Shown: positions 54,001 to 57,000 of the stretch, one piece after another
Position numbering within the stretch: the first letter of the stretch is position 1
Layout: each line of letters begins with the position of its first letter
Origin: Escherichia coli
GTDB taxonomy: Bacteria > Pseudomonadota > Gammaproteobacteria > Enterobacterales > Enterobacteriaceae
Assembly: GCF_003790525.1 (NCBI RefSeq)
Contig: NZ_CP033635.1
DNA: 64,000 nt
Reading direction: 5' to 3' (one strand)
Program-made: the position numbers

Positions 54001-57000
54001 TAGAGCAGGTACAGAGCCTTTTGGCATTTTGCTGAATTTTTCTTTAGCGATACAGATCTCAATACGCATAAAAGTCCCTCTACACTGTGTTTGTATACAG
54101 CATTATTTTTAACTGTATGGATAAACAGTATCAAGAGGAACGGAACGCCAAAAGGTGATGTGTTTTTGTTACCATTATTTACAAACAGAAAAACCCCAGA
54201 CTGTGAAATCTGGGGTTTTTATAAAGTGCACGTGCATTTCACGTGTATATTTTTGTCTTGTTCAGGTCTGTTTGTTGTCTGGTCAGTGTCCGTAATTATC
54301 TGTTTTTATTGTCGATGTCCGGTTGCAGTCCTGTCAAAAATGGTGGAGCTGGCGGGAGTTGAACCGGCGAGCCTTTCGGCTCCCCCACACAGACCGCCAT
54401 AAATCGCGAATGTGACTGTGCAAACGATATGAGAGAAGACGCGGGCGCGTCTCATATCGCTCCGTAAACATCCGGGACGCCAATCCCGACAACCGATTTT
54501 GCGGTTGCGTGGGGAATATAGCCCCGGGGGACAAAAACTGTCAATGGGCAAAAATTTTCGTTATCAGGAATGTATAAAATTAAATCAATTGAGCAAAAAA
54601 TCCTTTCTGCAAAACTAAAAAAGATTTCAATAAAATCAGGCAGTTAAAAACGCTGAAAAACGGTATAAAAAAGCATCTCAAAATCCTGTTTTTTCTTTCA
54701 GATACAATATCTTATTTGATTTTTTAAAACCTGCCAGTGTGGTACATGGATATCGATACCACCGCCAATTATAAACTGGGCGGTGCACAGCAACACGATA
54801 GCGTACGCCTCGATCCGTGGGTGTTTATGTTCTCAGCAGGATATCGTTTTTAATTCCGCACAAAAACGACCCCGTAATATACGGGGTCAATAAGGACATG
54901 GTATAAAGGGTATTATTTCTTCGCTTCTACGCCATCAGTTTCAGAGCGAATTAAAAATTTCTCAGTTGTTTGCGGAATATGCTGAATCAGCCAGTCGGCC
55001 ATTTGCTTTTCCTCATTTAAAATCGCTTCGATGGTTGGAATTGAAGCTGTATCACCGGCATTTTTTGCTGCTGCTAAGAGTGAGGTGTAACAGGCGATTT
55101 CAAATTGCTCGAAGACATATCCGCTAATAGAGCCTTTGACTATTTCATCAGAAGGAAATATACCACTGATTGACTGCCCAAGCGCAGCCATTTTACTCAT
55201 GGAATCTTTAATGACTGAACGTGAAATGTCATTACGATCAAGAATAGTTTCCAGTTGAACAATCGGTTTTTGGTTTCACTAAGATGTTGTTCAATACGAG
55301 CGCGTAGTTCAGGATAATTATCTATACGGCTGGCCATGGATTAAAGCATAGATTCGGCTTGCTTTTCCATTGCGTGGGCGTCACGTAACCAGTCATGATA
55401 ATGTTCAATACGATTCATGAAAATGTCCTCTTTATAAAATGACTAAAAGTTAAAGTTCATATTTCAGGCTTTATTTTCGGCTTTCTTATTTACGTTATTA
55501 AGGGCCAGATCAGTCAGTTTGATGTCGGTGGCCTTTTCTTCTTCAAGAGTTTCTTTCAGAAGCTTAGCTGCTTTACGGTAACCTAATTGTTCAGCCAGCG
55601 TCGCTAATGTCCCGTAACTGGCAATCTCATAATGCTCGACTTTCTGTGCTGCGGCAATCAGTGCGGCATCACGCACTTCGTTTTTCTCGGTACTTTCGAT
55701 GACCTCATTAGCTTCTTCAATAAGACCTTCCATTGCCACACATTTCATGCGCTTAATTTTCAGATTCGATTCTGATTCCACAACTTGATCAATACGTTCA
55801 ATCTGTCCATGTGTTTCCTCGAGGTGCGCATGAAAAGCCTGACTTAATTTTTCGTTTGATGTTGCTCTAGCGAGTTTTGCCAGTGCACGTGTTAATTGTT
55901 TTTCTGCACTGTAGGTGTCTGAAAGCAGGTGAATAAATACATCTTCAATGGTCTTCATATTCATATTTTTCTCCAGTGAAATCACTGCGAGCCATACGGC
56001 CCGCAGATGCAATTATCTTTATCAGCTGATATTAATAATGAACGGTGAATCAGGATTTTCCTGATTTATTACCACCGCTTTGTTGACCGCCTTTTTTACC
56101 TGCTTCAGATGCGCGTTGCGGATCATTTTTAAAATTACCGCCGCTATGCTGACCGCCTTTACGGCCTGCGTCGGATGCCTTCTCACGGTCTTCGGCGAAA
56201 TTTCCTGAACCACCACGATGTTCGGCCATGTTATTTCTCCCGTTGCGCTGCATTGTTTGATTAATATGAGTGTTGTGTGTCGACACTCATTAAAATTAGT
56301 CGCAAATGAGAATTAGTCAAATTAAGCGTAACGAGAAAAAAGAGGAAAAATATATTTTGAGGAACATTCTGGATATATTAACAATTGCCTGAGGAATAAG
56401 TGACTTAGAGAAAATTATTGACTTTACTGGTGTTATGTTGCGGGATTAATTTGTTTGATTATATTACTGTTGGGCGGAAAAAAGACGTAAGTTGACGTTC
56501 GACAGGGGTAAGCGAAACGGTAAAAAGATAAATAATAAATGAATTTAGGATTTTTCCGGCTTCGTTAAAGAAAGTAAAAATGCCGCCAGCGGAACTGGCG
56601 GCTGTGGGATTAACTGCGCGTCGCCGCTTTCATCGGTTGTACAAAAGCTTTCAGTGCCGCCAGCATTTTCTCTGGCTCATTAATATGTTGCTCGATGATT
56701 TTAACGATGGCCGAACCAGAAATCGCGCCCGCAGCTCCTGCATCAATCGCTGCTTTTACCTGATCCGGGGCGGAAATACCAAATCCCTGCAATGGAGGCG
56801 CAGCATTGTATTCTTTCAGCTTCGTGACCAGATGATTGAGGGGTAACGCGGCGCGGTTTTCTGCGCCGGTCACGCCCGTACGCGACAATAAATAGGTGTA
56901 ACCACGACCGTAAGAGGCTATCTGGCGCAGCAGGTCGTCATCGGCATTTGGCGGGCAGATAAAGATAGGTGCGACATTATGACGCAACGCGGCCTGGCGG

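What the first reader, a model, noticed from the sequence alone, without database searches (positions are those of the whole stretch)
54187..54365. ssrA (tmRNA) 3-prime end copy with downstream terminator inside the prophage right arm
The minus strand at 54341..54365 reads ggttcaactcccgccagctccacca, the 3-prime terminus of tmRNA, but the sequence upstream of it is unrelated to ssrA. A hairpin terminator lies ~120 bp downstream (54187..54221). This resembles the attachment core carried by elements that integrate into ssrA. It suggests that the right arm (including the dinI-like gene) derives from, or can recombine with, an ssrA-targeting element even though this prophage sits in ompW.
Basis: partly seen in the sequence, partly recalled or inferred. 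Interest (0 to 1): 0.5.

Follow-up and report, generated by a model that had tools for sequence, protein, structure and literature searches.

The report
ssrA att-site relic fused to C4 RNA
The tmRNA-like 25-mer is a real leftover half of an attachment site from a phage that integrates into the tmRNA gene; recombination welded it onto a truncated phage antisense-RNA (C4/isrK) gene at the end of a prophage sitting in ompW, so it is an informative recombination scar rather than a working gene or site.

Summary
GGTTCAACTCCCGCCAGCTCCACCA lies at 54365..54341 (-), is unique in the window, and equals the last 25 nt of annotated E. coli ssrA. The terminator at 54220..54189 is real, and the prophage does sit in ompW.

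The 25-mer and the ~200 bp after it (arm-type repeats, terminator, two SOS boxes, dinI) match the DNA that directly follows ssrA in ssrA-integrated lambdoid prophages (Sp17-like, CP-1639, PhiR12_1) at 82-91% identity. It is therefore the core plus P' arm of an ssrA-type attP.

In relatives, this module controls an ORF6N antirepressor gene next to the ompW attR.

- The joint lies within GGTT.
- Sixteen sister genomes keep C4(1)-ORF6N followed by a second C4 copy fused to the core.
- The window has lost the ~740 bp between two 26-nt repeats.
- An independent joint (TUM9803) falls within the same ~6 nt of the core. This favours recombination by an integrase at secondary sites, but does not prove it.
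- The site looks inactive: no P arm, no cognate integrase, no closing stem, no b' element and no antirepressor gene.

Interest is modest.

The parts
54728..54855 (+). Displaced ompW 3' fragment (attR side of the ompW prophage). It marks the prophage's right end.
   Evidence: Direct repeats 841-888/54728-54775 and 916-968/54803-54855 at 87-90% identity. RefSeq annotates an ompW pseudogene at the equivalent place in TUM1886, RM10809-3, LH50-c and ST2350.
54515..54544 (-). Near-consensus sigma-70 promoter (TTGACA-18-TATATT) that drives the isrK/C4 module.
   Evidence: 11 of 12 matches. It is conserved in RM10809-3, LH50-c and ST2350.
54432..54521 (-). Leader RNA: the c4-a1b1 target hairpins (54521..54469; b1 loop AUUGGCGU at 54484..54477) and the isrK sRNA with its terminator hairpin (54508..54432).
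   Evidence: Rfam isrK 69.2 bits (gathering 50) and c4-a1b1 51.2 bits (gathering 46.7).
54362..54404 (-). Retained 5' half of a C4 antisense RNA: the 5' strand of the closing stem, hairpin 1 (GAGCC-GAAA-GGCUC) and the first bases of hairpin 2 (GCCGGUU).
   Evidence: 97.8% identical to the ST2350 C4(1) allele, which scores 77.6 bits. The window copy scores only 28.5 bits against a gathering score of 45, because its 3' half is replaced.
54362..54387 (-). 26-nt stretch TGGGGGAGCCGAAAGGCTCGCCGGTT. It is present once here and twice (741 bp apart) in sister genomes. It is the joint of the secondary deletion or recombination.
54341..54365 (-). Copy of the ssrA (tmRNA) 3' end (part of the T stem, T loop, 3' acceptor strand, CCA). 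It is the core of an ssrA-type attP. The primary joint with C4 lies within its first four bases, GGTT.
   Evidence: phiES15 attP covers these 25 nt; phiNP's record starts here.
54160..54340 (-). P' arm of the ssrA-type attP, including the tandem CACGTG-type repeats at 54251..54229 (candidate arm-type integrase sites).
   Evidence: 82-85% identical to the DNA directly 3' of ssrA in CP-1639, O157:H7 Sp17-like prophages and PhiR12_1; best ssrA-located copy 90.6%. The repeat also occurs in the PhiR12_1 P arm.
54189..54220 (-). Intrinsic terminator inside the P' arm. By inference it ends ssrA transcription in ssrA lysogens and here ends read-through from the isrK promoter.
   Evidence: It occupies the same position in LH50-c, TUM9803 and, in degenerate form, PhiR12_1.
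54085..54130 (-). Two LexA (SOS) boxes, TACTGTTTATCCATACAGT (54130..54112) and CTGTATACAAACACAG (54100..54085), upstream of dinI.
   Evidence: Read from the sequence; coordinates. CTGT-N8-ACAG is the LexA consensus (established knowledge). Conserved in PhiR12_1, LH50-c and TUM9803.
53851..54069 (-). dinI-like gene, cut short to 72 aa by a TGG>TAG change (stop at 53853..53851); relatives encode 82 aa.
   Evidence: Annotated as DinI-like in relatives.
52459..53789 (-). IS1414 (IS256 family), a simple insertion just downstream of dinI (element 52467..53781; 8-bp target duplication 52459-52466 / 53782-53789). Context only, not part of the att relic.

Best explanation
The 25-mer is a genuine copy of the ssrA 3' end. 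It is the core of an attP from a lambdoid phage that integrates into ssrA. It is still joined to its P' arm, which carries arm-type repeats, the terminator that would end ssrA transcription in a lysogen, and an SOS-controlled dinI gene.

This half-site was joined by recombination to the 5' half of a P1-type C4 antisense-RNA gene. That gene belongs to an isrK/a1b1-C4-ORF6N antirepressor control module lying just inside attR of an ompW-integrated prophage. The joint lies within the four bases GGTT.

Proposed history:
1. Inferred (about 0.55): an ssrA-specific integrase recombined its attP with a secondary site, hairpin 2 of a second C4 copy. That hairpin (GCCGG-TTGGTTT-CCCGG) resembles the tmRNA T arm (GCGGG-TTCAACT-CCCGC).
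2. Inferred: homologous recombination between the two co-oriented lambdoid genomes left a hybrid prophage with an imported right arm (dinI, sigma-like regulator, Eib-type adhesin).
3. Shown by comparison with sister genomes: recombination between two 26-nt copies of the conserved C4 core removed the C4 3' half and the ORF6N gene (~740 bp). This gave the single hybrid seen in the window.

Today the locus is a scar. As an att site it lacks a P arm, a cognate integrase and a partner core. As a C4 RNA it lacks the closing stem, the b' recognition element, the b2 target and the antirepressor gene. What probably still works is the promoter plus the isrK-like leader, the terminator that shields dinI from read-through, and LexA control of a now truncated dinI.
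For: Core: exact 25/25 match to annotated ssrA, unique in the window. Other phage records annotate the same stretch as attP or a tmRNA pseudogene.

P' arm: homologous from the core to dinI with the ssrA-prophage junctions of CP-1639, O157:H7 and PhiR12_1. Of 412 genomes carrying core plus P', about 390 have it at ssrA.

Left part: isrK and c4-a1b1 score above Rfam gathering thresholds. The left part is 90-98% identical to intact modules at the same ompW-attR position in RM10809-3 and ST2350, where C4 scores 77-79 bits and precedes an ORF6N gene.

Antisense logic: b1/b'/b2 co-vary among alleles (AUUGGCGU/ACGCCAA/AUUGGCGU; AUUGGAAC/GUUCCAA/AUUGGAAC; AUUAGGAAC/GUUCCUAA/AUUAGGAAC; GUGGAAA/UUUCCAC/GUGGAAA).

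Switch point: alignment A1 places the change from C4 to ssrA sequence inside GGTT.

Parent structures: ST2350 has an intact C4(2) with the same upstream flank as the fused copy in LH50-c. The 26-nt repeat occurs twice, 741 bp apart, in four sampled sister genomes and once in the window.

Junction frequency: the fused 46-mer is in exactly 17 of 5426 genomes, all 100% identical.

Integrase sub-claim: a second, independent left partner (the HK97-like sib-tfa segment in TUM9803, near serU) is joined to the same donor within TTCA, i.e. within the same ~6 nt of the core. Both partners match the core's left half at 7 of 8 and 8 of 9 positions. Real P arms of ssrA-type attPs (PhiR12_1, phiNP, D53-1) are unrelated to C4.

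Loss of function: the hybrid's MFE is -28.9 kcal/mol, against -45.9 for the intact C4 with its 17-bp closing stem. The window has no ssrA-type integrase or P arm.
Against: - No reciprocal joint (P arm-core-C4 3' half) was found in complete E. coli genomes.
- The overlap (T-loop) sequences of the proposed secondary sites match the ssrA overlap poorly (TTGGTTT against TTCAACT). That would make integrase-mediated exchange inefficient.
- Both joints also carry the kind of microhomology expected from illegitimate recombination.
- The two joints share a >=99% identical donor arm, so they may not be fully independent.
- The best ssrA-located donor arm is only 90.6% identical, so the true donor is unsampled.
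- The sampled sister genomes carry a different C4(1) allele from the window (94.0% against 97.8% for ST2350). The immediate ancestor of the deletion was therefore not observed, and a recombination between two prophages within the 26-nt stretch is equally possible.
- No expression data exist.
Confidence: 0.8

Rival explanations
1. The primary joint was made by microhomology-mediated illegitimate recombination (or short-homology Red/RecET-type recombination) between an ssrA::prophage junction and the C4 gene, with no integrase involved. The identification of the parts is unchanged; only the way the joint formed differs.
For: Both joints sit on short near-identities: CGCCGGTT against CGCGGGTT, and GCGGTTTCA against GCGGGTTCA. 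No reciprocal product was found. The overlap regions of the partner sites match the ssrA T loop poorly. Mosaic joints at short homologies are common in lambdoid phages (established knowledge).
Against: Two different left partners are joined within the same ~6 nt of the donor, exactly at the 5' edge of the att identity block, out of several hundred bp of possible donor positions. C4(2) hairpin 2 mimics both arms of the T-arm palindrome with the same 5-7-5 spacing, not just one short patch.
Confidence: 0.35
2. The C4 5' half is the native P arm of some ssrA-type attP, so the window holds a complete relic attP whose upstream RNA gene is normally finished off by the ssrA core.
For: The fused 46-mer can be drawn as an acceptor-like stem (GGAGC/GCUCC) with a T arm and an ACCA tail, and gives a weak Rfam tmRNA hit. 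Intact C4 RNAs also end in ...GCC-ACCA.
Against: The three ssrA-type P arms examined (PhiR12_1, phiNP, D53-1 tandem joint) are AT-rich, resemble one another and are unrelated to C4. ST2350 shows the intact C4(2)-ORF6N(2) at the same position with an identical upstream flank, so the fused copy is a derived state. The junction is absent from 50,697 phage records and from viral contigs.
Confidence: 0.04
3. The hybrid transcript (C4 5' half fused to the tmRNA 3' end) is a functional tRNA-like small RNA, for example one processed by RNase P and carrying CCA, that acts as a decoy or regulator.
For: There is a strong promoter upstream. An acceptor-like GGAGC/GCUCC pairing with an ACCA tail is possible. 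Published work reports the C4 precursor as an RNase P substrate (Hartmann et al. 1995, cited in PMC4919922).
Against: The T stem has a C-C mismatch, and position 3:70 would be A-U rather than the G-U that AlaRS needs (sequence reading plus established knowledge). The predicted fold is poorly defined: the MFE structure has a frequency of 0.037 and the closing stem is lost. All 17 copies are identical, so conservation says nothing. The window's own form arose by deleting the gene the module used to control.
Confidence: 0.04
4. The site is an active attachment site: either a secondary attB for incoming ssrA phages or part of this prophage's own integration system.
For: The core is intact and the P' arm keeps the candidate arm-type repeats.
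Against: The prophage's own att repeats are the ompW 3' ends. Its integrase is unrelated to an ssrA-type integrase. The window has no P arm and no second core. The left half of the T-arm palindrome is altered (GCCGG instead of GCGGG).
Confidence: 0.05
5. The 25-nt match is a chance or generic tRNA-like motif unrelated to integration.
For: T-loop and CCA motifs are common in tRNA-like sequences.
Against: 25/25 identity in 0 of 100 shuffles. Homology continues for ~200 bp beyond the core into the known ssrA-prophage junction.
Confidence: 0.01

Closest known systems
ssrA-proximal junction (ssrA-core-P'-dinI) of ssrA-integrated lambdoid prophages: the O157:H7 Sp17-like prophage, CP-1639, PhiR12_1, Citrobacter phiNP
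   Same: Identical 25-nt core. The P' arm is homologous for ~200 bp (82-85%, best 90.6%), with the same order: core, CACGTG repeats, terminator, SOS boxes, dinI, then tail-fibre or cargo genes on the opposite strand.
   Different: Here the core is preceded by a C4 RNA 5' half, not by the rest of ssrA and not by a P arm. The locus lies inside a prophage in ompW, not at ssrA. There is no cognate integrase.
P1/P7 immI-type C4 antisense RNA system (Rfam C4 RF01695 with c4-a1b1 RF03163)
   Same: Promoter, a1/b1 leader, the 5' strand of the closing stem and hairpin 1 are present. The 25 nt of hairpin 1 are 100% identical to C4 RNAs of APSE-7, Hafnia and Actinobacillus phages. Intact sister alleles show b1/b'/b2 covariation and an RCCA-type tail.
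   Different: The window copy lacks hairpin 2, b', the 3' strand of the closing stem, b2 and the antirepressor gene. It scores 28.5 bits against a gathering score of 45.
Gifsy-1 IsrK-orf45-AnrP locus of Salmonella (PMC4825925)
   Same: The leader is a full-length Rfam isrK match with a terminator hairpin. In relatives it sits upstream of an antirepressor-type gene and is transcribed from its own promoter with partial read-through.
   Different: There is no downstream orf45 or antirepressor here. The published IsrK mechanism (trans activation of anrP translation) has no target left at this locus.
Displaced tDNA fragments and tandem island arrays at the tmRNA gene (Islander concept, PMC4383910)
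   Same: It is a 3' fragment of a tDNA carried by an integrative element, beginning in the T-stem/T-loop region (J/T subsite). D53-1 shows the ordinary tandem version, with a P-arm-like left flank.
   Different: The fragment is not at the tmRNA locus and is not paired with a full ssrA or an integrase, so it would fail Islander-type island criteria.
Secondary attachment sites of lambda-type integrases (established knowledge; not tested here)
   Same: Partner sites share partial identity with the core-type binding sites and the edge of the overlap. The joints fall at the edge of the overlap region.
   Different: No integrase dependence has been shown, and no reciprocal joint was recovered.

Membership tests
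tmRNA gene (ssrA) | Detected as a tmRNA by ARAGORN, or scores at or above the Rfam RF00023 gathering score | tested here: not met
   ARAGORN finds no tmRNA in the window. Rfam gives 22.5 bits against a gathering score of 47, from the acceptor/T-arm end only.
tmRNA gene (ssrA) | 5' acceptor strand, tag reading frame and pseudoknots upstream of the T arm | tested here: not met
   The upstream sequence aligns to C4/isrK, not to ssrA.
ssrA-type attP / att site | Core identical to the 3' end of ssrA, starting in the T-stem/T-loop region | tested here: met
   25/25 match to annotated ssrA. The same block is annotated as attP in phiES15 and LLS.
ssrA-type attP / att site | P' arm homologous to that of known ssrA-integrating phages | tested here: met
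   82-85% over ~200 bp to CP-1639, O157 Sp17-like prophages and PhiR12_1; 90.6% to the best ssrA-located copy.
ssrA-type attP / att site | P arm on the other side of the core | tested here: not met
   The P arms of PhiR12_1, phiNP and D53-1 have no match in the window apart from the core and one repeat motif.
ssrA-type attP / att site | Cognate tyrosine integrase in the same element | tested here: not met
   tblastn of the PhiR12_1 Int against the window gives nothing below E = 0.29. The window's Int is 25% identical over 68 aa.
ssrA-type attP / att site | Recombination activity with ssrA attB | not testable with these tools
   Needs an in vivo or in vitro recombination assay.
C4 antisense RNA (Rfam RF01695; P1 immI type) | Scores at or above the gathering score, with a closing stem and two hairpins | tested here: not met
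   Window copy 28.5 bits against 45. Intact sister alleles score 58-79 bits. The hybrid has lost the 17-bp closing stem.
C4 antisense RNA (Rfam RF01695; P1 immI type) | b' element complementary to b1 (leader) and b2 (before the antirepressor RBS) | tested here: not met
   b1 AUUGGCGU is present (54484..54477), but b' (ACGCCAA) and b2 are absent. Both are present in ST2350.
C4 antisense RNA (Rfam RF01695; P1 immI type) | Downstream antirepressor gene in the same transcript | tested here: not met
   There is no ORF between the core and dinI. ORF6N is present in RM10809-3, ST2350 and LH50-c.
C4 antisense RNA (Rfam RF01695; P1 immI type) | 5' maturation by RNase P | not testable with these tools
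   Known for P1/P7 C4 (Hartmann 1995, cited in PMC4919922). Intact alleles here end in GCC-ACCA.
isrK / c4-a1b1 leader (RF01394, RF03163) | Scores at or above the gathering score, with two target hairpins and a terminator hairpin | tested here: met
   isrK 69.2 bits (gathering 50) and c4-a1b1 51.2 bits (gathering 46.7).

The most novel reading that the evidence does not exclude
C4-type antisense-RNA genes can act as secondary attachment sites for ssrA-specific phage integrases, because their conserved hairpin-1/hairpin-2 core mimics the tmRNA T arm (5-7-5 palindrome, GCNGG...CCCGN). If so, integrase-mediated capture at such sites, followed by homologous resolution, is a route by which whole prophage right arms carrying cargo (dinI, Eib-type adhesin) move between prophages at different chromosomal loci (ssrA to ompW, ssrA to serU).
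Probability: 0.4. Interest if true: 0.45.

Novelty: new member of a known kind. Interest (0 to 1): 0.3.

Why it matters
It gives a base-level reconstruction of how a lambdoid prophage in ompW acquired the right arm of an ssrA-integrating phage, together with its adhesin cargo, and then lost an antirepressor control module.

The joint lies inside a tRNA-like regulatory RNA gene. A second independent joint falls at the same few bases. Together these suggest that site-specific integrases acting at look-alike sites contribute to prophage mosaicism. That idea can be tested directly with available phages such as PhiR12_1.

For annotation, it warns that a tmRNA 3' fragment need not mark an island boundary, and that a sub-threshold C4 hit can be a truncated module. 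For the biology of this strain it is probably neutral.

Tried and rejected
1. C4 5' half as the native P arm of an ssrA-type attP. Rejected: the P arms of PhiR12_1, phiNP and D53-1 are unrelated to C4.

2. Search for the reciprocal joint (P arm-core-C4(2) 3' half) using the ST2350 C4(2)-ORF6N(2) region. None found. The one partial hit (EcPF40) is a complete isrK + C4 allele in a P2-like element.

3. D53-1 as a third independent non-ssrA joint. Rejected: it is a tandem array at ssrA with a P-arm-like left flank and a degenerate core.

4. Exact scan of viral contigs for the junction 23-mer: 0 hits. Phage records: none carries the 46-mer.

5. Could the orphan a1b1 leader be a target of the window's second, intact C4 module at 5876-5963? 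No: the specificities differ (b1 AUUGGCGU against b' UUUCCAC).

6. Relation of the window's integrase to an ssrA-type integrase: none.

7. Hand-written alternative structures for the 46-mer were mis-indexed and are not used. Only the MFE values are cited.

8. Williams 2002/2003 and Hartmann 1995 could not be read. Statements based on them are marked as background knowledge or cited second-hand.

9. Literature search for a described C4-tmRNA or att fusion: nothing found.

10. Assumption that the window is strain TUM1886. Only partly true: 54150-54600 is 100% identical, but yciE differs.
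Full report
OBSERVATION

The minus strand at 54365..54341 reads GGTTCAACTCCCGCCAGCTCCACCA. It occurs once in the window and never in 100 dinucleotide-preserving shuffles. It equals the last 25 nt of ssrA as annotated in E. coli O157:H7 strain 8368 and in the CP-1639 record. The window has no tmRNA gene: ARAGORN finds only two tRNAs at about 17.2 kb, and the Rfam tmRNA model scores 22.5 bits against a gathering score of 47, from the acceptor/T-arm end alone. The hairpin terminator is at 54220..54189. The prophage sits in ompW: the ompW 3' end is present twice, at 841-968 and 54728-54855, and relatives annotate an ompW pseudogene fragment next to yciE.

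WHAT LIES TO THE RIGHT OF THE 25-MER (TOWARDS dinI)

From the first base of the 25-mer down to about 54160, the window matches the DNA directly 3' of ssrA in ssrA-integrated lambdoid prophages at 82-85% identity. These include CP-1639 (ssrA, then dinI, then tail fibre genes), the O157:H7 prophage that carries espM2 and espW, and the end of the PhiR12_1 phage record. Citrobacter phage phiNP's record begins exactly at the first base of the 25-mer. Cronobacter phiES15 annotates these 25 nt as its attP, and phage LLS annotates a tmRNA pseudogene/attP there.

Of 412 complete E. coli genomes that carry core plus arm, about 390 have it at ssrA at 80-90% identity, and the best ssrA-located copy is 90.6% identical. 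The arm contains a tandem CACGTG-type repeat (54251..54229) that also occurs in the PhiR12_1 P arm, making it a candidate arm-type integrase site. It also contains the terminator and two LexA boxes (54130..54112 and 54100..54085), followed by dinI. The segment is therefore the core plus P' arm of an ssrA-type attP. By inference, the terminator is what ends ssrA transcription once such a phage has replaced the native 3' flank.

WHAT LIES TO THE LEFT

Upstream of the 25-mer is a known RNA module:
- A near-consensus promoter (TTGACA-18-TATATT, 54544..54515).
- A leader that matches Rfam isrK (69.2 bits, gathering 50) and c4-a1b1 (51.2 bits, gathering 46.7).
- A sub-threshold match to the C4 antisense RNA of P1-type immI systems (28.5 bits, gathering 45), which spans the 25-mer.

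The same left part lies at the same place, just inside the ompW attR, in RM10809-3 (90.5%) and ST2350 (97.8%). There the C4 RNA is complete (77-79 bits) and precedes an ORF6N antirepressor-type gene.

The intact RNAs fold into a 17-bp closing stem enclosing two hairpins and end in GCC-ACCA. The recognition elements co-vary among alleles at three sites: b1 in the leader, b' in C4, and b2 before the ORF6N ribosome-binding site.
- ST2350 C4(1): AUUGGCGU / ACGCCAA / AUUGGCGU.
- LH50-c C4(1): AUUGGAAC / GUUCCAA / AUUGGAAC.
- RM13752: AUUAGGAAC / GUUCCUAA / AUUAGGAAC.
- The window's other module (near 5.9 kb): GUGGAAA / UUUCCAC / GUGGAAA.
 This is the P1 c4-icd-ant logic. It is also the family of the Gifsy-1 IsrK-orf45-AnrP locus (PMC4825925).

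THE JOINT

Alignment A1 shows that the window follows the C4 sequence through ...GGGGGAGCCGAAAGGCTCGCCGGTT and then follows ssrA (GGTTCAACTCC...). C4 reads CGCCGGTT and ssrA reads CGCGGGTT, so the switch lies within GGTT.

The fused 46-mer is present in exactly 17 of 5426 complete genomes, always 100% identical, and in no phage record or viral contig. Each half is widespread on its own. The 5' 25 nt are 100% conserved in C4 RNAs of APSE-7, Hafnia and Actinobacillus phages.

HOW THE WINDOW'S FORM AROSE

In LH50-c and the other sampled sister genomes (LR-31, 24A16CRGN010, F1022) the order is: ompW fragment, promoter, leader, intact C4(1), ORF6N, then a second C4 5' half fused to the core, then P', then dinI. 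The 26-nt stretch TGGGGGAGCCGAAAGGCTCGCCGGTT occurs twice, 741 bp apart.

ST2350 shows the unfused parent: after ORF6N(1), and with an identical upstream flank, comes a complete C4(2) (58 bits) followed by b2 and ORF6N(2). The primary event therefore joined C4(2) to the ssrA core.

The window has the 26-nt stretch only once (54387..54362). It combines an ST2350-type left allele with the LH50-type right part. So it arose either by deletion or by inter-prophage recombination within that repeat, losing the C4 3' half and ORF6N. Among complete genomes, only TUM1886 shares this exact form.

INTEGRASE OR MICROHOMOLOGY?

Real P arms of ssrA-type attPs (PhiR12_1, phiNP, and the tandem joint in D53-1) are AT-rich, resemble one another and are unrelated to C4. 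The C4 half is therefore not a native P arm.

A second non-ssrA context exists. In TUM9803, a prophage next to serU carries the same arm (>=99% identical) joined to an HK97-like sib-tfa intergenic segment. HK97 reads GCGGTTTCA|TTTATC, ssrA reads GCGGGTTCA|ACTCCC, and TUM9803 reads GCGGTTTCA|ACTCCC.

Two different partners are thus joined within the same ~6 nt (GGTTCA) at the 5' edge of the att identity block. In addition, C4(2) hairpin 2 (GCCGG-TTGGTTT-CCCGG) copies the 5-7-5 palindrome of the T arm (GCGGG-TTCAACT-CCCGC). tDNA-targeting integrases are known to cross over in the T loop or T-stem junction (PMC4383910; Williams 2002/2003, from background knowledge, not read).

I therefore favour integrase-mediated recombination at secondary sites, followed by homologous resolution between co-oriented lambdoid genomes, at about 0.55. 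Against this, both joints also carry microhomology, the overlap regions match poorly, and no reciprocal joint was found. Illegitimate recombination therefore remains a serious rival, at about 0.35.

PRESENT FUNCTION

As an att site the locus is incomplete. It has no P arm and no ssrA-type integrase, the prophage's own integrase is unrelated, and there is a single core. TUM1886 has no second copy of the arm, so no matching element sits at its ssrA.

As a C4 RNA it has lost hairpin 2, b', the 3' strand of the closing stem, b2 and the antirepressor gene. Its predicted fold is weak and poorly defined (-28.9 against -45.9 kcal/mol).

By inference, the promoter still makes an isrK-like leader, read-through ends at the P' terminator, and dinI stays under LexA control. 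dinI itself carries a TGG>TAG truncation, and IS1414 has inserted just downstream.

VERDICT

The locus is a recombination scar: half of an ssrA-type attP welded into a truncated C4/isrK antirepressor-control module. It is a new instance of known kinds of things (tDNA fragment relics, lambdoid mosaic joints, C4 modules). The one open question of some interest is whether C4 genes serve as look-alike targets for ssrA integrases.

Noticed in passing
window 5273..6064 (-) and 6299..6348 (-): A second, complete isrK (5988-6064, 67.2 bits) plus C4 (5876-5963, 73.8 bits) module precedes an antirepressor-like ORF (ATG about 5818). Its b1/b'/b2 set is GUGGAAA/UUUCCAC/GUGGAAA, a different specificity from the orphan leader at 54.5 kb. 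A DicF RNA (65.1 bits) lies just upstream.
   Followed up: partly
window 43230..44544 and 52467..53781: Two copies of IS1414 (IS256 family, 99% identical), each a simple insertion with its own 8-bp target duplication (GAGAGCTC; GAGAGAAT at 52459-52466 / 53782-53789). The second copy sits just downstream of dinI.
   Followed up: yes
window 53851..53853 (-): The dinI-like gene carries a TGG>TAG nonsense change relative to LH50-c, which shortens the product from 82 to 72 aa.
   Followed up: yes
window 54913..55419 (-): yciE is frameshifted in the window (N-terminal half out of frame) and differs at two residues from the intact yciE of TUM1886. The window is therefore not literally that assembly, even though 54150-54600 is 100% identical.
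   Followed up: partly
window 50164..51597 (+), 51659..52114 (+); also L011, L012: The imported right arm carries a YadA-like trimeric autotransporter with 99-nt tandem repeats (Eib-type immunoglobulin-binding adhesin, by resemblance only) and a sigma-factor-like HTH gene. The same cargo follows the core-P'-dinI segment in LH50-c (ompW) and TUM9803 (serU).
   Followed up: no
window 47335..48575 (+): A long array of 45-nt repeats encoding collagen-like Gly-X-Y triplets lies inside a 543-aa ORF (47218-48849), probably a tail fibre.
   Followed up: no
window 54477..54484 (b1) and 54346..54351 (within the 25-mer): The orphan b1 loop UUGGCG can pair with CGCCAG in the tmRNA-derived segment (6 bp including one G-U). 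This is probably chance, but it partly mimics the lost b' element (ACGCCAA).
   Followed up: no
L013 (ST2350) 2960-4164; L011 (LH50-c) 2103-3046: ompW-integrated prophages carry two tandem C4-ORF6N cassettes just inside attR. The second C4 has no a1b1 leader of its own, and its b'/b2 specificity (GUUCCAA/AUUGGAAC) differs from that of the first cassette in ST2350.
   Followed up: partly
L009 1-300 (rc), L014 3340-3433, L022 2950-3010: The P arms of three ssrA-type att sites (PhiR12_1, phiNP, D53-1) share an AAATCATT-A-A-TCAA motif about 30-45 nt upstream of the core. This may be an IHF or arm-type site.
   Followed up: no
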